Position numbers and translations under genes: made by a program
Part shown: piece after piece, positions 32,695 through 42,394 of the stretch
How the letters are laid out: each line of letters opens with the position of its first letter
Position numbering within the stretch: position 1 is the first letter of the stretch
The notes under the pieces: model-generated
The model's input: the letters and a program-made list of their open reading frames with translations, nothing else
Told to the model about the DNA's origin: nothing
Databases searched by the model: none
DNA from: an uncultured Candidatus Saccharibacteria bacterium
GTDB lineage: Bacteria > Patescibacteriota > CAZHWT01
DNA length: 64,000 nt
Direction of reading: 5' to 3'
NCBI GenBank assembly: GCA_964597145.1
Contig: CAZQWH010000002.1
Span: 177,232-241,231 of the forward strand

Positions 32695-32879
32695 AGACTC
32701 GTATTATATCAGAAATATGGACGGGACAGCGCTACGGCCGTACCGTTAGTCAACGGCGGTGAATCTACACTACTACGATGCTGCCGTGAGCAACTTCGTG
32801 CACGAATAAGGAGAGTAGCACCCCTCTTGATCGAGCTCCAACCAAGATCCGCCAAAGAATAAAGGCGTATTGTAATTGC

Positions 32880-33707
32880 GTTCGCCGAACGGTTATCCCT
32901 TGACGTTCGACTTTATTTTTACTTTTTTTGGTTAGATTGAACTTGGTGACTGCCTCGAATTACTCAAAAGTTAGATGATCAATTTTCTTAAGATCACGTT
33001 GATAATTGGCCTGATCAAGAACAAACCTCATGTAGTCACGCGGTGATTTGAAATCCTCAAGAATACAGGATGTATTTATATTGTTAGTCGAACTGAGATT
33101 GCAGTAGTGGCGGAAAGACGACCATGGGTACTCAACAATCTCTCTATCATTACTGACTATGGATGCTGAGTATGGATTGAGATGGATGTAGCGGGAAACA
33201 TGTAGCAGTTGTTGACTTGTTTCTATATGGACGGCTTTAAATACACCTTCAAATACCGATCCTTTACGTTGGTGTTTTAAGTTGAATCGATGCGAGATGC
33301 TGCTTTGCACCATCCTCATATAATCGTATATACCATCATCAACTTCCTGCCGAACAAGCAGATGAAAATGATTTGACATAAGGCAATACGATACAAGCGA
33401 TATCCTACCCAGTGATTGTTGTCGCCTCATATCTATTGATACTCTTGAATCCAAGTTTTGAGCTAGATAGTACGATAGTCGTAGGGATTTGTCTGAGGAT
33501 AGGTAAAAATTCATTGCGCTTAGCGCCAGCTTATATTCTCTAGCACTAGTGAATATTTGTCGTCTATCAATCCCCCGATTAAAAATGTGATAGTAATTAC
33601 CCGTTATGAATGGTGGCTGCACAACGTATCCTCCTGAATGGCAGCTACATAACTGAGACTTATAGACTATAAACTATCGAACGTCAAGAGATAACCGTTC
33701 GGCGAAC
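32880..33707. mobile_element. Transposase-only unit: Y1 tyrosine-transposase (RAYT/IS200-like) gene between 31-bp inverted repeats with one mismatch (32880-32910 gttcgccgaacggttatcccttgacgttcga; 33677-33707)
   Basis: Inverted repeats read directly; each contains the hairpin GTTCG-C-CGAAC. Confidence 0.7.
32960..33622 (-). CDS. Y1 (HuH) tyrosine transposase, RAYT/IS200-like
   Basis: YHIFNRG..., HuH motif NHFHLLV, catalytic Tyr region SRYIHLNP. Confidence 0.75.
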   Translation of the reverse strand: MQPPFITGNYYHIFNRGIDRRQIFTSAREYKLALSAMNFYLSSDKSLRLSYYLAQNLDSRVSIDMRRQQSLGRISLVSYCLMSNHFHLLVRQEVDDGIYDYMRMVQSSISHRFNLKHQRKGSVFEGVFKAVHIETSQQLLHVSRYIHLNPYSASIVSNDREIVEYPWSSFRHYCNLSSTNNINTSCILEDFKSPRDYMRFVLDQANYQRDLKKIDHLTFE

Positions 33708-33885
33708 GTGGTTTCATTGAAAGTCAAAATCGCACAACTATTTAATTTCTAAGTTGTGTACATAACTTTCAAAAATTAAGCTGTCCACTATGACAGCTTA
33801 GAATTAACTCAAAGTATCTTATTAACCCCATACCCGCTCAATTTATATAAATACCTTAAAATATTAATGCCTGTTTCGTTGCTAT

Positions 33886-35466
33886 CTAGTTATCACCTAG
33901 GTAAACAATATATCCTACGTTCTTATTGCCCTTATTAGCTAATTTGAACCTCTCATAGACTTTAATTACAACCTTGCTGAGTAAATACGACTTCTGAGAC
34001 TCGACATTTCCAACTTCTTCTAGCCATTTTGGAGGCTTATTCAGAAAGGATTCCAGTAGCTCCTGATTATCTGAAAAGGCTTCTACTTTAATATCAAAAT
34101 TGCTTTTATTAGCTGGAGTTTCATCATCAACTGCAAGTGGAGAATAAATATGCAAAGTTCCAAGCTTCTCAGTATCTATTACTAGCACTTCAGTGCGCGA
34201 ACGCATATTCAATCTTGCTTCAAATACCGGAATCACCTTATTTTGATGCTTATAAATTCCTATAAAATTTGAAAGGCCTGCTTCCGGGTATAATGTTACA
34301 TCTAGCTGCCATTTCTCTGTAAATGATTCTATCTTCCCGTAGCCAAAAGTAGATCTACTTAGGACGATTAAAATTGGGTTACTACAAAGCCTTATCGCTC
34401 CATCGATTGATCCATCATACTTAATACTACTTTCGTATATTTCATTGAATAGTTGGATATTTTCACCTTGGGCAATATTTTGCCCAAAATTTTCGCCCCA
34501 GTTTACATATGATACATGCCAGTTATCAAAGAAAACTGCTTTGTCATCCACCCTTGATATACCTGCTCTAAGGACTTTCCCCTTATATTTCTTATTTGTT
34601 TCATCTTTCAATTTCTGGTAATAGTCAAAAAGTGACCTCATATAGGATGCTCTAGAAAACGCCTTCTGAACATCAATCTTGAAATCCTCTATCTTCTTTG
34701 TGCTTATTGGCTTTGACCGTTCAGTTTCCAGGATTAGCTTTTTTGCTTCGATTGCTAGGTTTTCCAAGGTTGGTATTACACTACTTCTCACTAATGACTT
34801 ATCTAAGCTCAACTCTCTAAATAATTGCTCGTCTTCTTCCATTCCAAGAGCGACTTGTTTTAAGCCTTCTATCGAGTACGTTATGTCACTTAGCTGGTCA
34901 GTATTAAAGCCAGATAAATTGAAAGTCGCATGGGGAGTTGTCACAAATGATCTCAGCATTAATACGATGAAATACTCTTTTACATAAATACCGCTTCCAT
35001 GATGTCCCTCCCAAAAATCAAAATCTCTCCTGCCCGAAATCCTTCTAAAATAGTAGTTAATAATGTCGGATAACGCTGATGGGTGTATATCGTCACTCAT
35101 CCAAATTGTATCGGAGTCAGCAGGCTGTTTGTAGTCAAGCATTAACTTTATGAACTTGTACTGCTTCTTAAATAGACAATATGCACCGACTGCAAATACT
35201 TGTGATCGTAAGTTTGTATATTTGTACAATTCCTCAGCATTGCGTGATAATTTACCTGCAACTTTAATAGCTTCCTGTTGTTTCTCCTGCAGCAAATATG
35301 GTTCGACTAGCTTTTTTAGTTCTGCAAGCTGCTTTTGCCAGTTTCTAAGCTCTTCAGCAGAATTAATAAGATTTAAGGACTTCTCTAAATCATTTGTTAC
35401 TTGCCTAATCTTTTCGTCGTCAGCCTGTTTTCCACGTCTCCTAAGATCACTACTTAGATCCCACAC
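33886..35466 (-). CDS. Hypothetical protein (526 aa), soluble, N-terminal coiled-coil; AT-rich island gene 4 of 4
   Basis: Long ORF in a roughly 32% GC region. No P-loop or known catalytic motif found by eye. Confidence 0.55.
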   Translation of the reverse strand: MWDLSSDLRRRGKQADDEKIRQVTNDLEKSLNLINSAEELRNWQKQLAELKKLVEPYLLQEKQQEAIKVAGKLSRNAEELYKYTNLRSQVFAVGAYCLFKKQYKFIKLMLDYKQPADSDTIWMSDDIHPSALSDIINYYFRRISGRRDFDFWEGHHGSGIYVKEYFIVLMLRSFVTTPHATFNLSGFNTDQLSDITYSIEGLKQVALGMEEDEQLFRELSLDKSLVRSSVIPTLENLAIEAKKLILETERSKPISTKKIEDFKIDVQKAFSRASYMRSLFDYYQKLKDETNKKYKGKVLRAGISRVDDKAVFFDNWHVSYVNWGENFGQNIAQGENIQLFNEIYESSIKYDGSIDGAIRLCSNPILIVLSRSTFGYGKIESFTEKWQLDVTLYPEAGLSNFIGIYKHQNKVIPVFEARLNMRSRTEVLVIDTEKLGTLHIYSPLAVDDETPANKSNFDIKVEAFSDNQELLESFLNKPPKWLEEVGNVESQKSYLLSKVVIKVYERFKLANKGNKNVGYIVYLGDN

Positions 35467-35540
35467 ACTTTTACTCTCAAGTGGACCGTGCCACCGTCAA
35501 TAAGAGATGATACAAAGTATATAAATAGCTTTTCCTGACC

Positions 35541-36830
35541 CTACCTAATAATTGACCTAAGATTTCCTAATAGGTATGCATCGAAGGTTGGTAGATATTC
35601 CAACCGAAACTCAGCCTCTGTCCTTCCAAACTTATCGAAAACTGTTTCGATATACCAATCAATAGCAGCAACATACATAGAAGATTTAGAATGCAGCGCC
35701 GAATCTTGAGCAATAGTACTCAACCGTCGCAATATTAGCTGAATATACAAGCCTCTGCCCTCTTGCTTGCTAAAATAAATTAGGAGCCTTATGAGGCTAT
35801 AAAGTGATTTTCTACTGATATCATCAGCTGCCTGCCCAGCATTGTACACACGAATAAATTGCTGGATTGTTGAGGTGTAGGTAATTAGATATCGATCAGG
35901 ATCATATCGTAAGCGTAGATTGGCTTCATCTGCATAGTTGATATCTTGGTCATCTGATGACAAATCGAGAGCATCATCTGAAGCATTTTCTTTGTTCGTT
36001 CGCTTCCCTGAACTCTTATGTTCCCCCATGTTATAGATTAAAAAGAAATCGTCACTTAGAATGAACGGCTCAATTTCCTCCAAGCTTCCTTCAGGTACAA
36101 CTAGCTTAGTTATACTCTCTAATTCTGGCAGACTCTCTTCTAGCAACGCCTTTAGGTTAGACCTCTCTGCTTCTGAGACAAGGATGTCACCGTAGCCCTC
36201 AATTAAATCTAAATAAACTTGCTTATTCCTTTTACGCAATGCAACTTGCAATGCTTTATTTATCTCTCGCTTTATCCTCTCCTGATCTAGCGTGTAGGTA
36301 TACAACCTATTTAAATACTGAGCGAAAGCTACCAGCCCTGCCAACAAGAGGATCAATAGCAAAAATGTGATTGCCCTTTGAACGTTCCCAGTCAAGCTAG
36401 CATCATTCAAAAATAGTCTTGATCCCAATGAGAGGCTGACAATTACCAAAAACAGCGGTATCAACCACTGCATTTGCCACTCGTTTAGCAGGCGCTTTCT
36501 AAGCACTCTGGTTCTGGCATAAGATCGCGAGACTTTATCTAGAGTTTCTATGCCAAGTGGCACCGCTATGGCAAGCACTACTCCAATAAATGCACCTAAA
36601 TCGGAGATAAATTGCAACTGTGGCCTGAATAATGCCTCCTTTAAGCCGCTTGCAAATTCTACAGTTATGAATTCAGGCCTAGCTATATCTGCTACTAGTA
36701 TCAGAAGTACTAAAAAATAGATAAGGATCGTTAGTAAAATAACAGAAACTAGTCGACCATAAAACGAAGCAATCACCCCTTTTGCGTAGCCAATAATTTT
36801 GTCAATCTCTAGCTTATTCATCTTCGTCAA
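35541..36830 (-). CDS. Hypothetical membrane protein (429 aa): about 5 N-terminal TM helices plus a roughly 230-aa cytoplasmic domain; island gene 3 of 4
   Basis: Hydrophobicity pattern; overlaps the upstream gene by 17 bp. Confidence 0.55.
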   Translation of the reverse strand: MTKMNKLEIDKIIGYAKGVIASFYGRLVSVILLTILIYFLVLLILVADIARPEFITVEFASGLKEALFRPQLQFISDLGAFIGVVLAIAVPLGIETLDKVSRSYARTRVLRKRLLNEWQMQWLIPLFLVIVSLSLGSRLFLNDASLTGNVQRAITFLLLILLLAGLVAFAQYLNRLYTYTLDQERIKREINKALQVALRKRNKQVYLDLIEGYGDILVSEAERSNLKALLEESLPELESITKLVVPEGSLEEIEPFILSDDFFLIYNMGEHKSSGKRTNKENASDDALDLSSDDQDINYADEANLRLRYDPDRYLITYTSTIQQFIRVYNAGQAADDISRKSLYSLIRLLIYFSKQEGRGLYIQLILRRLSTIAQDSALHSKSSMYVAAIDWYIETVFDKFGRTEAEFRLEYLPTFDAYLLGNLRSIIR

Positions 36831-37629
36831 CTCTGGCTTTTTCGCCCTCCAGTGGTGATGTTACATAGTCAATAAACTGATCTCCAATCTCTGTTGCAAG
36901 CGATTGGCCATATTGGAGAGGATTTCCTTTTGCAGTACTAACCGCTATGTAAAGTCCATCAAAGCTAGTTTCTTGACGCCCAGGCATGCGTGTAGCAATG
37001 TGCCCCATTTCTTCCAATGGGTATGACAATATCAGTCCATCACTCATTAAATCTCGGATATATTGGAGTTCAATATAATCCTCAATTACTATATCCGGAT
37101 GAGCCTTAAGTAGTTCAGTTTTAGGATGACCCACATGACGGGTAGTAAGGTTTCCCCAATCCCACCTAGGGGCATCATGATGAAGCTTAAGCATCCTTAT
37201 ATGTCCATACGTGAGTCGGTCAATATGGTTATAAAAAATGGCTTGCAGATCATCGTTAAGGGTTGAAGGCAATACGGTATTAACAACTGCATTCCGCAAC
37301 AAAGCTCGCTTTTCTTCAGCTGTGGTTCGCTGCGAAATACTTACAGCCTGCAATACTGCGGTTGTAAATTGCTCATTTTTTACAATATCTTCAATCGATA
37401 CTCTTCCTTGGCTTTTTAGCTCCTCTAAATCACTTAGCACTCCTTCAAGCAATACATTTGTCCGACGTTGCATAGGCGGAGTAAGATACTGCTGAAACAG
37501 TCCGCTAACAACATTGCCCGAACCAGGCAAGAGATGTAATTCAGAAAACTGGGACAATCCAGCAGATATCAATAACGCCATAAAGTCTTCTAAACTGGGC
37601 TTTGGCAATCTTTCGAGGCTATTCGACAT
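36814..37629 (-). CDS. Hypothetical soluble protein (271 aa); island gene 2 of 4
   Basis: ORF with no recognisable motif. Confidence 0.5.
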   Translation of the reverse strand: MSNSLERLPKPSLEDFMALLISAGLSQFSELHLLPGSGNVVSGLFQQYLTPPMQRRTNVLLEGVLSDLEELKSQGRVSIEDIVKNEQFTTAVLQAVSISQRTTAEEKRALLRNAVVNTVLPSTLNDDLQAIFYNHIDRLTYGHIRMLKLHHDAPRWDWGNLTTRHVGHPKTELLKAHPDIVIEDYIELQYIRDLMSDGLILSYPLEEMGHIATRMPGRQETSFDGLYIAVSTAKGNPLQYGQSLATEIGDQFIDYVTSPLEGEKARVDEDE

Positions 37630-37786
37630 AGACCCAATATACCACTGAGAATCAACTGCGATGATGGATTGCTTGGAATAGTCAATTCGCTGTTTACACA
37701 GCCTACTTAATCTTCGTCATCGATGATAAATTCTTCTGGAGTAGTACCCTTTTGAACTGTCGTAGACATTCTCAACCTCCCTTCTC

Positions 37787-38251
37787 TCACTTAAGTAAGA
37801 CCACTGCTATTACTGAAAGGATAAATAACACTGAAAGCAAGGCATAGGCGAGCTTGTTTAGACGATCAGTTGCCTCTGCATAGAAGTTAAATAGTTGAAC
37901 ACGTCGAGTCAGTTTGATGTTATACGGGCTATCACTAGTCTCCCCAGTGCTGTCACCCTTATCAATCATTTCATTCGGAGATTTTATATCCTTATATTCA
38001 TGCATCTTTATCTGATTCTCTCTAGATTTTTTAGCCGTAACTAAGCTTAAAAAATGAACCGCTAAAGTAATTATTCCTAAAACGATTCCAGCCTGCACTA
38101 AAATGTTCGTTAAATTAGAGCTGCTAGGTAATACAAAGAAGATTCCGGTGATAAAAACAGTTATCACTTGCGTTGCGAGGGTATCCAGCTGAGTTGAGCT
38201 TTCTCGATAACCTGAAATGGCGTTTTTTAACTTTTCGTTTTGGGCTTCCAT
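37787..38251 (-). CDS. Hypothetical small membrane protein (154 aa, 3 TM); island gene 1 of 4
   Basis: Hydrophobic segments at about 25-50, 55-75 and 130-152. Confidence 0.5.
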   Translation of the reverse strand: MEAQNEKLKNAISGYRESSTQLDTLATQVITVFITGIFFVLPSSSNLTNILVQAGIVLGIITLAVHFLSLVTAKKSRENQIKMHEYKDIKSPNEMIDKGDSTGETSDSPYNIKLTRRVQLFNFYAEATDRLNKLAYALLSVLFILSVIAVVLLK

Positions 38252-38663
38252 ATAACATTTATCTCCATATAGCTAATAGGCCTAAGTTGTTCTAGGCTTC
38301 TATTACTATTTTAATCTAGGCTTCGGAGAGTTTTATATGTTTATTTCAGTTAACAAAAAACTTTATTATAGTTTTGGCTTTTGTAATAACAAATTTATAC
38401 AAAAAACAATATTATATCTGGGTGCTGCGAGCGGTGGTGCAGTCGTTGTAGCTACTCGTCTTAATCGATCTAGTCTGCTCATTAAGACCTAGAGTGGACT
38501 ATTCGGCCTGCATTATCTCTAGCTGTAATTGTCCGAGTCTTGCGCGGTTTAGGGGCGATGAATTCAAATGATAACTTTAAAGTTGGGAAGCTATACCCAC
38601 CATCCCGATTTTGAGACTCATAACCAACCTATTGTAACAGAGGAAAGTAAGTTTGTTGTATAG

Positions 38664-39299
38664 TTGTACCTAATGAACGACTATATTAAAAAAACAATTA
38701 TGGCGTATGATGACACAAAAACCTATGAGAACAGTACCCGTTTACTTGTTCCAAAAGTTGAACTGAACGAGTTTGTTTCAATGCTGCCATCAGGTTTAAT
38801 GGTGTTGGACGCTGGGTGTGCATTTGGCCGGGATACAGAATTCCTAAAGGCAAAAGGCGTTACTGTACGTGGTATAGATTTATCACCAGCATTGATAGGA
38901 CGTGCAAAGGAGCTGGTTCCTGATACAGACTTTGAAGTGAAAGATATTCGTAAAACTGGTTTCACTGATGAGCAGTTTGACGGAATATGGTGCAATGCCA
39001 CATTACTGCATTTAAAAGACGAAGATATTGCAGTAGCCCTCGCAGAGTTTAAACGCATCATGAAGCCAGGCGGAGTTCTGGCTGTATCGCTTAAGAAGGG
39101 AGAAGGGACTCAGCAGTTTGTAGAAAAATTTAGCAGTAAATCGGAGCGATTCTTCAACTTTCAGACTCACGAAACGTTCCTTGAACAGTTACAACGAGTA
39201 GGACTCGAAGAGGTCAGCTGGCACTACCTAAATGAGCGTGAACGGTATGGCCAAGATAAGCGTGACCTTGACTGGCTGTACTCATTTTCCAAAAAGTAG
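38664..39299 (+). CDS. Class I SAM-dependent methyltransferase (Methyltransf_11/25-like, probably small-molecule)
   Basis: Motif I VLDAGCAFGRD, post-I acidic residue (GIDLS), motif II/III region DGIWCNATLLHL...MKPGGVL. Confidence 0.75.
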   Translation: MYLMNDYIKKTIMAYDDTKTYENSTRLLVPKVELNEFVSMLPSGLMVLDAGCAFGRDTEFLKAKGVTVRGIDLSPALIGRAKELVPDTDFEVKDIRKTGFTDEQFDGIWCNATLLHLKDEDIAVALAEFKRIMKPGGVLAVSLKKGEGTQQFVEKFSSKSERFFNFQTHETFLEQLQRVGLEEVSWHYLNERERYGQDKRDLDWLYSFSKK

Positions 39300-40238: not shown

Positions 40239-41312
40239 CTATGGTTGAGCTAGAACCATGCCATACATGACTTGTCGAGCCCGCTGCGACCAATCTCCCG
40301 AGAAATTAACTCGCTTGCCGTTAATAGTCTGTCGAAGAGCCTCACTTGGGGTAACCTCTTCTCGAGCAAACATAAGGGCAGAGTCTTGGTCGGAGAAAAT
40401 GTATATCCCTCCAGACAAAGACAGTGTGACGCCCCTTGGCCGAGCAATTACCCAGTAGAAACTGGTCTGGCGTAACACTACTCTAATCACCGCTCGATGA
40501 GCAAAGTCTTGGACACCTCCCAAGCTCACGTTGAAACCGTTATGTTGCAGAGTCTGAACTAGCTCAGATTCATACTCTGGAGCTCGCTTCAATTGGTCGG
40601 CCTCAGGTAACGGTTGATCTCGGTTGGGTGGATCTTGATGAAAGACAATCTTTAAATCAGCTTTGATCTCGTCCCACCGCCATCCAACTACTCGTCGAGT
40701 GAATTGTTCCCACTCAACCTCAAGAATGTTCCGTAAAGCCCGCGGCTCCAATCGCTTACGCGCGCGCCGACCAACTGGCCAGGTAAAGGGAATCTCAATC
40801 GTACCATCGGTTACTACGTGACGGGCATAATCGGGGCCAAAAATACCTTTAACCAGTGGCAACTGCACGGTAGACTCCAGCTTGCTCTCCTCTCTCGGCT
40901 CCTCCACGGTAGATGAAGATGAAATCAGGGCGGACGCCGCCGCCGCGGTCGGTCGAGATGGCGGGTGTGCTGTAGTTGGATAAGCCCGATTAGCCAACCA
41001 TTGTCTAACCTGACGGTAGCTCAGTGTGTCAGTACCCACCAGAACTTGAGGGTAATAAACCTCTATACCAGTCATGGTCCGGGCTTTCAAGGGTATCGGC
41101 GCTACCTCATACCATGCCCCTTCCACTTCGAACCGCAAAACCTCAATCTGTTTGGATTCACCAATCTGCATGGCTGGCCCATGGACTATATCGGGCCAAA
41201 TTAACTTATAGCCCCCAGAGATCGTATCTTTGCCTGGTTGGCTAATGTAAAAGCCGTTGGGCCCACGCATGATAGTTCGAACCTGCCGCTTGACTTGACC
41301 AATCTTGGCCAT
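40239..41312 (-). CDS. Hypothetical protein (357 aa), Trp/Arg-rich, two domains joined by an Ala/Ser linker; a sampled 60-bp stretch is about 55% GC
   Basis: Long ORF with no motif recognised. Confidence 0.5.
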   Translation of the reverse strand: MAKIGQVKRQVRTIMRGPNGFYISQPGKDTISGGYKLIWPDIVHGPAMQIGESKQIEVLRFEVEGAWYEVAPIPLKARTMTGIEVYYPQVLVGTDTLSYRQVRQWLANRAYPTTAHPPSRPTAAAASALISSSSTVEEPREESKLESTVQLPLVKGIFGPDYARHVVTDGTIEIPFTWPVGRRARKRLEPRALRNILEVEWEQFTRRVVGWRWDEIKADLKIVFHQDPPNRDQPLPEADQLKRAPEYESELVQTLQHNGFNVSLGGVQDFAHRAVIRVVLRQTSFYWVIARPRGVTLSLSGGIYIFSDQDSALMFAREEVTPSEALRQTINGKRVNFSGDWSQRARQVMYGMVLAQP

Positions 41313-41470: not shown

Positions 41471-42394
41471 TTGATTTTAATTATTATGCCGATGCAACAT
41501 GTTAAACAAACAATTAATCATGCTAGACATACTCGTCCAGCTTGGTATCACGAGTATCACCAATGGCCACATCATAAATCTCTCCATTGGGCCACGTTCA
41601 CTATTTCTTCGGCGGTCATTTTGCTGGGGTTAGTTAATGTTGCCTATCTAATGAATCAAAATCCACCCCTGCAAGTTGCCAACGGCGCCGAAACCATTAC
41701 GACTCAGGAATTAACCTCTTCCACCCTCTCTATCGGCAGCCAACCTACCGCCTCTCTCAGCACCGCAACCGTCAATTCAACTGCATCACAAAATACAACA
41801 GGTAATTTAGGTACCGTTACCATTACCGACGACCGTGGCTCTGGCGCTGGGTGGTCGACAACCGCAACGGCTTCGCATTTTACTGCAATTAATGCCGCGG
41901 TTATGACTTCGGGTGCTAATAATACAGTTACCTCGGGCGGAAGCTACGACAACGCCAGCGGTGGCATCTACACTATTACCATCGATGGAGCTGGAGACAC
42001 TGGTGTTGCAACCTTTACCGTAAGTGGGTTAGAGACCGCCAGCACAACAGTTACAGGCACCGACATAGCTATTGGCACCCATGGGGTGACTGCTACCTTT
42101 GCTTCAGCCAGTTATGAAGTTGGCGATCAATGGACTATCCGGGTAGATATTATTCCAGTCACCGGCTTAACCATGACTCCTTCTGTCGTCACCACCATAG
42201 CCGGATCATCAACCGGTGTCACAGCGGGCAGCCAACACACATTCTCAGATACCACCGATCCGACAACTATCATGTCTGCTTCCAGCAATAACGGAATGGG
42301 TTCCTACTCCAACAACCCAGCCTTAGAATTAATTATCCCTGCTAACTCGTACGCCAACACCTACTCTGCAACTATTATAGAAACAGTAAACTAA
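41471..42394 (+). CDS. Surface protein with signal-anchor, Ser/Thr-rich region and a WxL-like C-terminal domain
   Basis: N-terminal TM; TITDDRGSGAGWSTTATASHFTA resembles the first WxL motif region. Assignment is tentative. Confidence 0.35.
   Translation: MILIIMPMQHVKQTINHARHTRPAWYHEYHQWPHHKSLHWATFTISSAVILLGLVNVAYLMNQNPPLQVANGAETITTQELTSSTLSIGSQPTASLSTATVNSTASQNTTGNLGTVTITDDRGSGAGWSTTATASHFTAINAAVMTSGANNTVTSGGSYDNASGGIYTITIDGAGDTGVATFTVSGLETASTTVTGTDIAIGTHGVTATFASASYEVGDQWTIRVDIIPVTGLTMTPSVVTTIAGSSTGVTAGSQHTFSDTTDPTTIMSASSNNGMGSYSNNPALELIIPANSYANTYSATIIETVN

What the first reader, a model, noticed from the sequence alone, without database searches (positions are those of the whole stretch)
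33708..38660. AT-rich four-gene operon of membrane and soluble proteins beside a transposase unit: candidate undescribed accessory or defence-type module
Four co-oriented minus-strand ORFs are tightly spaced (gaps of 74 and 157 bp, one 17-bp overlap). They encode a 154-aa 3-TM protein, a 271-aa soluble protein, a 429-aa protein with a multi-TM N-terminus and a cytoplasmic domain, and a 526-aa soluble protein. None carries a motif I recognise: no P-loop, nuclease or HuH motif. The region is strongly AT-shifted; a sampled 60-bp stretch is about 32% GC against about 52% in a core-gene sample. It begins directly at the right inverted repeat of the transposase unit at 32880-33707. A SAM methyltransferase is transcribed divergently on the far side. 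The composition shift, the mobile-element neighbour, the operon layout with small membrane components, and the absence of housekeeping homology together match the usual signature of horizontally acquired defence or abortive-infection islands. That resemblance is an inference, and the function is unknown.
Basis: partly seen in the sequence, partly recalled or inferred. Interest (0 to 1): 0.8.

Follow-up and report, generated by a model that had tools for sequence, protein, structure and literature searches.

The report
Broken membrane-tethered capsid-fold gene plus Abi-like gene
The "four-gene operon" is really a small imported gene island holding an orphan membrane protein, a relative of a known phage-suicide protein, and a broken copy of one large undescribed gene that is predicted to tether a virus-capsid-like domain to the inside of the cell membrane and that sits among anti-phage genes in other microbes.

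Summary
The four minus-strand ORFs, their spacing, the adjacent IS200/RAYT-type transposase with 32-nt inverted repeats, and an AT shift are all real.

They are not a conserved four-gene system.

- ORFs C (429 aa) and D (526 aa) are two pieces of one ancestral gene of about 960 aa. It is cut by an in-frame TAG and, 50 nt later, a 1-nt frameshift. Saccharibacteria homologues (977 and 1039 aa) align straight through the break.
- This family has a 4-TM anchor, an α-helical region of about 500 aa and a C-terminal domain. It matches nothing in Pfam, NCBIfam, PADLOC or PHROGs.
- The family is rare and spread patchily across phyla by horizontal transfer. It was not found in phage collections. It recurs beside restriction-modification and toxin-antitoxin genes and inside DISARM-like loci.
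- B (271 aa) belongs to a large family of solitary genes related to Abi_alpha (PF14337).
- A (154 aa, 3 TM) is an orphan.
- A and B never accompany C/D homologues elsewhere.

A defence role is inferred, not shown.

The parts
37787..38251 (-). ORF A: 154-aa orphan membrane protein. TM segments at about 24-42, 50-68 and 134-152, with a K/R-rich cytoplasmic loop.
   Evidence: ORF; TM segments. No homologue among 5.8 billion clustered proteins. Only sub-threshold hits: NCBIfam SLATT_1 at E 0.004 (17 bits against a 41-bit cut-off) and PADLOC 2TM effector at E 0.0016.
36814..37629 (-). ORF B: 271-aa soluble protein from a large family of solitary genes related to Abi_alpha (PF14337).
   Evidence: 1927 representatives at E<1e-3 and 553 at E<1e-10. 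9 of 60 relatives hit PF14337, best E 1.7e-8. phrog_26838 at 3.4e-8. 11 viral contigs and 1 phage genome carry relatives. No conserved partner gene.
36231..36830 (-). Module T of the split gene (ORF C residues 1 to ~200): 4-TM membrane anchor with the motif FISD..AF..V....PL.IE....VS..Y.
   Evidence: Homologous to the separate 150-196-aa upstream TM proteins of relatives and to the N-termini of the fused 920-1040-aa proteins. TM segments. The positive-inside pattern puts the rest of the protein in the cytoplasm (sequence reading).
35544..36230 (-). Module N of the split gene (ORF C residues ~201-429): helical domain.
   Evidence: Residues 203-428 align to residues 23-220 of the 792-aa homologue P0009, E 4e-29. 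Helical in the AF2 model of P0009.
35491..35543 (-). Lesion zone. In-frame TAG at 35541-35543, then 16 still-conserved codons (GQEKLFIYFVSSLIDG), then a 1-nt frameshift at about 35491-35493.
   Evidence: tblastn of the fused Saccharibacteria homologues runs 36773->35493 in one frame and 35490->33904 in the next. DNA read. The junction is identical in assemblies of three sequencing runs.
34615..35466 (-). ORF D residues 1 to ~284: helical region carrying the most conserved motifs of the family (AVGAYCLFKK, YKQPADSD, FWEGHHGS).
   Evidence: Alignment A1 invariant columns. Region-wise conservation 0.72 against 0.53-0.61 elsewhere. Helical in the models.
33889..34614 (-). ORF D residues ~285-526: predicted HK97-fold (capsid/encapsulin-like) domain. 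The boundaries are approximate.
33777..33800 (-). Terminator-like hairpin (9-bp stem followed by a T-run) downstream of ORF D.
   Evidence: This is a consensus match only.
38365..38392 (-). Sigma-70-like promoter match (TTGTTA-16-TATAAT, 10 of 12) upstream of ORF A.
   Evidence: This is a consensus match only, and promoter-like sites are not enriched in the region.
32879..33708 (-). Neighbouring RAYT/IS200-like Y1 transposase unit: gene at 32960-33622, 32-nt inverted repeats at both ends.

Best explanation
The region is a low-GC, horizontally acquired mini-island next to a RAYT transposase unit. It carries three unrelated accessory genes in one orientation.

(1) A is an orphan 3-TM protein.

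(2) B is a solitary-gene protein related to Abi-alpha. Abi-alpha is an abortive-infection protein that makes infected cells lyse early. By analogy, B is the most likely active anti-phage element here.

(3) C+D is one gene of an undescribed family, here broken in two by a nonsense codon and a frameshift. When intact, the protein is a cytoplasm-facing, membrane-anchored polypeptide. It has a 4-TM anchor, an α-helical solenoid of about 500 aa and a C-terminal HK97-fold domain.

My proposed mechanism for the intact family is inferred, not shown. The tethered capsid-fold domain engages phage capsid-assembly components: capsomers, scaffold or portal. It then either poisons assembly or transmits binding through the solenoid to the TM module, which permeabilises the membrane in an abortive-infection-type outcome.

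In this genome the copy is either recently inactivated or working as a two-piece version. I lean slightly towards inactivation.
For: Shown.
- Continuous alignment of 977- and 1039-aa Saccharibacteria homologues (43-45% identity) across the C/D junction. The only disruptions are a TAG and a frame change. The junction is reproduced in three run assemblies.
- The three modules T, N and Cd occur in several arrangements in 38 genomes: T|N-Cd, fully fused, and T-N|Cd.
- There are no hits in four HMM libraries or by PDB sequence search.
- The family reaches 66-85% identity across phyla and includes an archaeal copy.
- No match in 50,697 phage genomes, and none recovered from IMG/VR by the pattern-seeded scan.
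- The neighbourhoods are rich in defence genes. The gene is embedded between an Eco57I-type methylase and UvrD plus a DEAD/MZB(DUF1998) helicase in L032 and L049. It lies by SNF2 + Eco57I + TA genes in L004 and by HsdR + PDDEXK in L010. The most recurrent neighbour families are DNA methylases, EcoRV, GmrSD, ResIII and MNT nucleotidyltransferases.
- B links to Abi_alpha transitively. Its own neighbourhoods hold Eco57I/N6 methylases, Pycsar-type TIR and Mrr. Relatives occur in viral contigs.
- Abi-alpha's phenotype is taken from PMC6356687.
- A and B are absent from all C/D-family loci.
- GC is 38.7% against 45.4±0.8%.
Against: - No experiment bears on function. The defence role of the C+D family rests on guilt by association in roughly a third of the loci. 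Other loci, such as L007, are flanked by housekeeping genes, and no background control was run.
- The HK97 fold is a prediction from a 29-sequence alignment. Both models used nearly the same alignment.
- The best-conserved stretch of the family is not the capsid-like domain. It is a motif cluster in the helical region (K/Y/C/K, D.D, GHHG), which the capsid-engagement model does not explain.
- B itself does not reach any Pfam threshold.
- The copy in this window is disrupted, so nothing about its activity here can be assumed.
Confidence: 0.66

Rival explanations
1. One reading: A, B, C and D form one co-functional four-gene defence or abortive-infection system. The small membrane proteins would act as effectors and the soluble proteins as sensors.
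For: The genes are co-oriented and tightly spaced. There is a single promoter-like site upstream and a terminator-like hairpin downstream. The whole tract has a uniformly low GC.
Against: - No homologue of A or B lies within ±8 kb of any of the 38 C/D-family loci.
- B-family genes have no conserved neighbour in 46 metagenomic loci, and none resembles A.
- The C/D family needs no partner beyond its own TM module.
- C and D are one broken gene.
Confidence: 0.05
2. The C/D break is a functional gene fission. The T-N protein and the Cd protein assemble into the same complex as the fused protein, and the module is active in this organism.
For: - The family naturally exists as two polypeptides (T | N-Cd) in most genomes.
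- An independent lineage (L011 = L020, Spirochaetota) is split by a frameshift within the same ~20 codons, which form a domain linker.
- Both halves are free of further stops over 429 and 526 codons.
- A GTG with a weak GAGAG upstream is available for D.
Against: - There are two lesions 50 nt apart, and 16 conserved codons are stranded untranslated between them.
- There is no tidy stop-start overlap like the natural T|N-Cd junctions.
- Other relatives are broken at arbitrary positions (L017, L045, L049), as expected for decaying genes.
- Intact flanking halves are also what a very recent inactivation would leave.
Confidence: 0.4
3. The C/D family is not an immune protein. It is a domesticated capsid that builds a membrane-attached shell or lattice, an encapsulin-like compartment or scaffold with a housekeeping or metabolic role.
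For: - The top structural matches are encapsulins (7bcv, 2e0z, 9i8e, 7k5w).
- A few Family 3 encapsulins carry TM extensions (PMC8346489).
- Some loci are flanked only by housekeeping genes (L007).
Against: - No conserved cargo or partner gene.
- Sporadic, HGT-driven distribution with frequent disruption.
- Recurrent placement inside RM/DISARM/TA clusters.
- A ~700-aa N-terminal extension on every subunit fits poorly with a closed shell.
Confidence: 0.15
4. The HK97 resemblance is a modelling artefact or a convergent α/β arrangement. The family would then be simply an uncharacterised membrane protein.
For: - Sequence identity to capsid proteins is only 8-15%.
- Foldseek TM-scores are moderate, 0.35-0.48.
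- No capsid or encapsulin HMM is hit.
- The model rests on 29 sequences.
Against: - pLDDT is 87-88 and pTM 0.76-0.83.
- A second algorithm on a different library again returns only capsid proteins.
- The order of secondary-structure elements matches the fold: β-hairpin, long helix, then a mixed β/α core.
Confidence: 0.1

Closest known systems
Abi-alpha (EF2833 of Enterococcus faecalis V583 prophage 6; Pfam PF14337 Abi_alpha, formerly DUF4393)
   Same: ORF B is a soluble, mostly helical protein of 271 aa; Abi-alpha is 272 aa. It is encoded as a solitary gene with no fixed partner. Its family occurs in prophages and viral contigs and in defence-rich neighbourhoods. 9 of 60 close relatives of B match PF14337 (PMC6356687).
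   Different: B itself does not match PF14337 even at E<=1. The family is not in PADLOC. The host is probably a CPR bacterium rather than a Firmicute. No phenotype is known.
Encapsulin shell proteins (e.g. Linocin-M18 7bcv, T. maritima 7k5w), including the Family 3 encapsulins of Mesorhizobium with a C-terminal 4-5-TM extension (PMC8346489)
   Different: Here the TM helices are N-terminal and are separated from the capsid-fold domain by ~500 aa of helical solenoid. There is no cargo or biosynthetic operon. There is no sequence match to Linocin_M18 or Phage_capsid. The genomic context is defence or mobile elements. Shell assembly is untested.
Ccm of SaPIbov5, a capsid-protein homologue that co-assembles with the helper-phage capsid protein and redirects assembly (PMC8569155)
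   Same: It is a precedent for a non-phage element using an HK97-fold homologue to interfere with phage capsid assembly. This is the mechanism I propose for the intact C/D family.
   Different: Ccm is a close sequence homologue of its helper's capsid protein. It is soluble, it is encoded by a phage satellite, and it serves the satellite's own packaging. The family here has no detectable sequence similarity to any phage protein and is membrane-anchored.
Capsid-sensing immune proteins: Avs7/8/10, CapRel and Lit (PMC13581612)
   Same: The major capsid protein is a proven trigger of bacterial immunity, so a capsid-directed sensor in a defence island is plausible.
   Different: Those sensors wrap or recognise the capsid protein with TPR or other domains. 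None is itself built on the capsid fold, and none has this TM-solenoid architecture.
DISARM (class 1) loci
   Same: In L004, L032 and L049 the C/D-type gene lies between the Eco57I-type methylase and the helicase/DUF1998 genes that characterise DISARM-like systems.
   Different: It is an occasional embedded passenger, not a core component. Most family members, including the window copy, have no DISARM genes nearby.

Membership tests
Abi_alpha (PF14337) - applied to ORF B | Significant match to the PF14337 profile | tested here: inconclusive
   B itself has no hit at E<=1. 9 of 60 proteins that match B at E 1e-23 to 1e-14 do hit PF14337, best 1.7e-8. The relationship is therefore transitive. 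No profile-profile test was available.
Abi_alpha (PF14337) - applied to ORF B | Single-gene system: a soluble protein of about 270 aa with no obligatory partner | tested here: met
   B is 271 aa with no TM segment. 46 family loci show no conserved neighbour. Abi-alpha is 272 aa and acts alone (PMC6356687).
Abi_alpha (PF14337) - applied to ORF B | Abortive-infection phenotype (premature lysis of infected cells) | not testable with these tools
   Needs phage challenge of a host expressing B.
HK97-fold shell proteins (phage major capsid proteins, encapsulins) - applied to the C-terminal domain of D | HK97 fold | tested here: met
HK97-fold shell proteins (phage major capsid proteins, encapsulins) - applied to the C-terminal domain of D | Sequence membership in a capsid or encapsulin family (e.g. 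Phage_capsid, Linocin_M18) | tested here: not met
   No such Pfam, NCBIfam or PHROG hit for D or for any of 29 homologues. The PDB profile search gives E 1.6 at best. There is no tblastn hit in phage genomes.
HK97-fold shell proteins (phage major capsid proteins, encapsulins) - applied to the C-terminal domain of D | Genomic partners: portal, terminase and protease for viruses, or a cargo enzyme for encapsulins | tested here: not met
   No conserved neighbour across 35 loci, and no virion or cargo families among the recurrent neighbour families.
HK97-fold shell proteins (phage major capsid proteins, encapsulins) - applied to the C-terminal domain of D | Self-assembly into capsomers or closed shells | not testable with these tools
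   Needs multimer modelling or biochemistry.
SLATT / 2TM pore-forming effectors - applied to ORF A | Match to a SLATT profile above its cut-off | tested here: not met
   NF033634 SLATT_1 scores 17 bits against a 41-bit cut-off, E 0.004. PADLOC 2TM effector E 0.0016. This is a lead only.
Catalogued anti-phage systems (PADLOC-DB v2.0.0) - applied to A, B, C and D | Match to any system component model | tested here: not met
   No significant hit for any of the four proteins, nor for 60 B relatives.
   A and B homologues are absent from all 38 loci encoding C/D relatives. A is absent from the neighbourhoods of B-family loci.
RAYT / IS200-like Y1 transposase unit (the neighbour) | Y1_Tnp domain with HUH and Tyr motifs, flanked by inverted REP-like repeats | tested here: met
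   Pfam Y1_Tnp 9.6e-8; NCBIfam REP_Tyr_transpos 1e-12, which is below its equivalog cut-off. 32-nt inverted repeats.

The most novel reading that the evidence does not exclude
The C/D family would represent a new class of prokaryotic immunity built on an exapted capsid. An HK97-fold domain is held at the inner face of the membrane by a 4-TM anchor and a long solenoid. It co-assembles with or senses incoming phage capsid-assembly intermediates, and it either poisons head assembly or opens the membrane. The family appears with two different helical middle regions on the same capsid-like domain. It has spread by HGT across bacteria and into archaea.
Probability: 0.3. Interest if true: 0.9.

Novelty: categorically new. 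Interest (0 to 1): 0.64.

Why it matters
Outside viruses and their satellites, the HK97 capsid fold is known mainly from encapsulins. A membrane-tethered, solenoid-linked HK97-fold protein that travels by HGT and lodges in RM, TA and DISARM-like clusters would be a further independent exaptation of a viral capsid by cells. It could be the first immune protein built from the very fold it may target.

The question is directly testable, because intact copies exist in cultured strains:
- Pseudanabaena galeata CCNP1313 plasmid pPg_05
- Anabaena lutea FACHB-196
- A. catenula FACHB-362
- Trichormus sp. NMC-1
- Catalinimonas sp. 4WD22

For annotation practice, the case shows two things. A tidy 'operon' of unknowns can be a patchwork of unrelated cargo. 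And two adjacent ORFs can be one broken gene.

The 'categorically new' label applies only to the C+D family. B is a new, distant member of a known kind, and A is an orphan. The copy in this window is disrupted, which limits what this particular locus can do.

Tried and rejected
- Pfam, NCBIfam, PHROGs and PADLOC scans of all four proteins gave only sub-threshold noise for A, C and D.
- A Pfam scan of 29 D homologues gave nothing consistent: DUF3037 and KH_SLS1_2 at E>0.004.
- A PDB sequence-profile search with the C/D family gave E 1.6 at best. The hits happened to be capsid proteins, but in a different region, so I did not use them. The same search with the B family found nothing.
- The word-indexed homology search found no relatives for A and only two for B. 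The exhaustive HMMER search was needed to find B's family.
- A PADLOC scan of B relatives found nothing.
- I looked for a conserved partner gene by all-against-all clustering of neighbours. None was found for the C/D family or the B family.
- I looked for strain variants lacking the island through exact look-up of the flanking YchF. All nine contigs show the same arrangement.
- A Pfam scan of the N-terminal two-thirds of the sister family (~1050 aa) for an effector domain found nothing.
- The afdb50 fold library was unavailable.
- The metagenome scan with the 60-sequence B alignment failed because no stretch was conserved enough. It was repeated with 17 sequences.
- Literature searches for a membrane-anchored or defence-associated HK97-fold protein found no description. 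The library lacks most subscription papers.
- I considered reading the TAG as a recoded codon. I set this aside because a frameshift follows 50 nt later and all other ORFs of the window read normally with table 11.
- I considered the methyltransferase as part of an RM pair. I rejected this because it is a small-molecule-type class I enzyme (Methyltransf_11/25, DVU_1556 family).

Full report
**1. Checking the observation**

The four minus-strand ORFs exist exactly as described:
- A, 154 aa, 37787-38251
- B, 271 aa, 36814-37629
- C, 429 aa, 35541-36830
- D, 526 aa, 33886-35466

The gaps are 157 and 74 bp, and B and C overlap by 17 bp. Hydropathy gives three TM segments in A, four in the first ~170 residues of C, and none in B or D.

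The gene at 32960-33622 is an IS200/RAYT-type Y1 transposase. It is bracketed by 32-nt inverted repeats at 32879-32910 and 33677-33708, 97% complementary, and these are the only two copies in the window. A class-I SAM methyltransferase is transcribed divergently at 38664-39299.

The AT shift is real but smaller than stated. The region is 38.7% GC. In 191 equal-sized windows elsewhere the mean is 45.4% (sd 0.8, minimum 43.5%) (profile).

One promoter-like site lies upstream of A and one terminator-like hairpin follows D. These are consensus matches only.

**2. C and D are one broken gene**

Homologues of D are mostly 780-810 aa. Their first ~220 residues align to residues 203-428 of C, with E 4e-29. 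The small TM proteins encoded just upstream of those homologues align to the N-terminal TM half of C.

Across 38 genomes the family consists of three modules: T (TM), N and Cd. They are arranged in several ways:
- T | N-Cd, two overlapping genes. This is the commonest form.
- One fused protein of about 880-1040 aa. It occurs in Brachyspira, six cyanobacteria, two Saccharibacteria, a Nitrospirales MAG and a Salinispira MAG.
- T-N | Cd.

The two Saccharibacteria proteins (977 and 1039 aa, 43-45% identical) are the closest relatives. They align without interruption over window 36773->35493 in C's frame and 35490->33904 in D's frame.

Residue by residue, L036 reads ...FIIDDNYKTLFAAFVSYLVDGLHEPYRSNTVWELGH. 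It lines up with the window's ...SIIR\*GQEKLFIYFVSSLIDG followed by HGPLESKSVWDLS in the next frame.

So the gene carries an in-frame TAG (35541-35543) and a 1-nt frameshift about 50 nt downstream. Sixteen recognisably conserved codons are stranded between the two lesions. The 161-nt junction is identical in assemblies from three separate sequencing runs, so this is not a one-off assembly error.

Whether the result is a pseudogene or a tolerated fission cannot be decided here.
- For fission: the family already works as two polypeptides elsewhere. A Spirochaetota copy (L011/L020) is frameshifted within the same ~20 codons.
- For decay: there are two lesions, no tidy stop-start junction, and only a weak start context for D. 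Relatives are broken at arbitrary other places (L017, L045, L049).

**3. What the C+D family is**

It matches no model in Pfam, NCBIfam, PHROGs or PADLOC. It matches no solved structure by sequence.

Sequence identity to these is 8-15%, so the link is by fold only. The two models share essentially one alignment and are not fully independent.

The K/R distribution around the four TM helices of C follows the positive-inside rule. The loop after TM2 and the segment after TM4 are strongly basic. This places the solenoid and the capsid-like domain in the cytoplasm (read from the sequence).

The most conserved 100 residues of the family are not in the capsid-like domain. They lie in the helical region and carry the motifs AIGAYCLFK, WEYKQPPDSDA and FWEGHHGS. 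No explanation so far accounts for these motifs.

A sister family of 1016-1094-aa proteins has 3-4 N-terminal TM helices and an unrelated middle region. Its C-terminal domain is the same capsid-like domain, 33-62% identical to the Brachyspira copy. It has no Pfam domain. The capsid-like domain therefore behaves as a portable module that always sits on a membrane anchor.

**4. Distribution and context of the C+D family**

Among one genome for each of 185,579 species, 38 carry a relative. They include several CPR lineages, Gammaproteobacteria, Spirochaetota, Bacteroidota, Thermodesulfobacteriota, Actinomycetota, Clostridia, Cyanobacteria, Nitrospirales, Zixibacteria, Planctomycetes and one Bathyarchaeia MAG. 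Identities of 66-85% between phyla point to recent horizontal transfer.

No match was found in 50,697 phage genomes, and the pattern-seeded scan of IMG/VR viral contigs recovered none. There is one plasmid copy, an intact 1021-aa 'hypothetical protein' on pPg_05 of the cultured Pseudanabaena galeata CCNP1313. It lies next to PIN-domain and mobilisation genes.

No neighbour is conserved beyond the family's own TM module. The neighbours that recur are defence genes:
- In L004 the pair sits between an SNF2 helicase plus Eco57I-type methylase and two toxin-antitoxin pairs.
- In L032 and L049 it sits between an Eco57I-type methylase and a UvrD helicase plus a 1780-aa DEAD-helicase/MZB(DUF1998) protein. 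That is a DISARM-like set. GmrSD or a kinase/AAA protein lies alongside.
- In L010 it follows a primase-bearing element next to HsdR and a PDDEXK protein.

In Pfam tallies of 172 neighbouring ORFs, the families seen more than once are dominated by DNA methylases (N6_N4, Eco57I, D12, EcoRI-type), EcoRV, GmrSD, ResIII, MNT-type nucleotidyltransferases and serine recombinases.

Other loci, such as L007, are flanked by housekeeping genes. I ran no background control. The defence association is therefore suggestive, not quantified.

**5. B and A**

B has only two relatives in the word-indexed search. The exhaustive HMMER search finds 1927 representatives at E<1e-3, mostly 225-270 aa. Nine of 60 of these hit Pfam Abi_alpha (PF14337), best E 1.7e-8. 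B also hits phrog_26838 at 3.4e-8.

Abi-alpha is the 272-aa single-gene abortive-infection protein of E. faecalis prophage 6. It causes premature lysis of infected cells (PMC6356687).

B-family genes in 46 metagenomic loci have no fixed partner. They recur beside Eco57I/N6 methylases, Pycsar-type TIR proteins and Mrr. They occur in 11 viral contigs and one Pseudomonas phage.

B is thus best read as a distant member of, or sister to, the Abi_alpha family. Membership by the Pfam model itself is not met.

A has no detectable homologue anywhere. It has only sub-threshold resemblance to SLATT/2TM effectors and holins. It may or may not work with B, and nothing here tests that.

**6. Are the four a unit?**

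No. tblastn of A and B against all loci that encode C/D relatives finds them only in this same genome. A-like proteins are absent from B-family neighbourhoods. All nine contigs of this population that carry the flanking YchF show the same arrangement, so no strain lacking the island was seen.

**7. Most likely mechanism**

Shown:
- an imported low-GC tract beside a transposase unit;
- three unrelated cargo genes;
- one of them related to a proven single-gene Abi;
- one of them a disrupted member of a novel TM-solenoid-HK97-fold family.

Inferred:
- B is the likeliest active anti-phage function in this locus.
- The intact C/D family acts in phage exclusion. It presents a capsid-fold domain at the cytoplasmic face of the membrane, where it engages capsid-assembly intermediates. 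SaPIbov5 Ccm is a precedent for a capsid homologue interfering with assembly (PMC8569155). Avs7/8/10, CapRel and Lit show that the capsid protein is a common immune trigger (PMC13581612).
- The TM module would act as anchor or effector.

Alternatives are a membrane-attached encapsulin-like structure and a modelling artefact. I consider both less likely (see the rival explanations).

**8. Novelty and verdict**

I found no description of such a protein in four HMM libraries, in the PDB, or in the searchable literature. The nearest thing is a handful of Family 3 encapsulins with a C-terminal MFS-like extension (PMC8346489).

The 'four-gene module' is wrong.

The locus itself is modest: a patchwork island with its largest gene broken. 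It nevertheless leads to a gene family that is unusual and experimentally tractable.

Noticed in passing
window 32879-33708: A RAYT/IS200-like Y1 transposase gene lies exactly between two 32-nt inverted repeats. Only these two copies of the repeat occur in the 64-kb window, so there is no sign of a dispersed REP family here.
   Followed up: partly
window 40239-41312 (-): A 357-aa ORF has the highest GC in the window (51.5%). It has no hit in Pfam, NCBIfam, PHROGs or PADLOC. It lies just beyond the low-GC tract.
   Followed up: partly
window 41471-42394 (+): A 307-aa Thr/Ser/Ala-rich protein has an N-terminal hydrophobic segment. It looks like a surface or pilin-like protein.
   Followed up: no
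L028 3046-6204; L030 1588-4749; L031 5961-9245; L035 5811-9047; L040 5894-9088; L043 5595-8849; L047 456-3506: A sister family of 1016-1094-aa proteins has 3-4 N-terminal TM helices and an unrelated middle region. Its C-terminal domain is the same HK97-like domain, 33-62% identical to the Brachyspira copy. In L030, L031 and L035 it directly follows an EcoRI-type adenine methylase.
   Followed up: partly
L032 2-18073; L049 1192-17588: These are DISARM-like loci. They hold an Eco57I-type methylase, a UvrD helicase and a 1780-aa fused DEAD-helicase + MZB(DUF1998) protein. Extra embedded genes are GmrSD in L049 and a Ser/Thr kinase with AAA_35 in L032. The capsid-fold gene sits in the middle.
   Followed up: partly
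L011/L020 6850-9620 (7575-10345 in L020); L017 8016-10223; L045 1275-4359; L049 6965-9998: Several relatives are split or truncated. The Spirochaetota copy (L011/L020) is frameshifted within the same ~20 codons as the window copy. The others are broken elsewhere.
   Followed up: partly
L012-L016, L023: Family members are 66-85% identical between a Harrisonbacteria MAG, a gammaproteobacterium, Brachyspira, Owenweeksia and Thermodesulfobacteriales. A 40%-identical copy occurs in a Bathyarchaeia MAG. This points to recent inter-phylum and inter-domain transfer.
   Followed up: no
window 34900-35250 (D residues ~75-170): The most conserved stretch of the family carries the motifs AYCLFK, KQPxDSD and FWEGHHGS. 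It lies in loops and helices of the solenoid, not in the capsid-like domain. It could be a binding or catalytic site, and it remains unexplained.
   Followed up: partly
window 38337-38492 (+): The public gene calls place a 51-aa ORF in the intergenic space between the methyltransferase and ORF A. It overlaps the promoter-like site for A.
   Followed up: no
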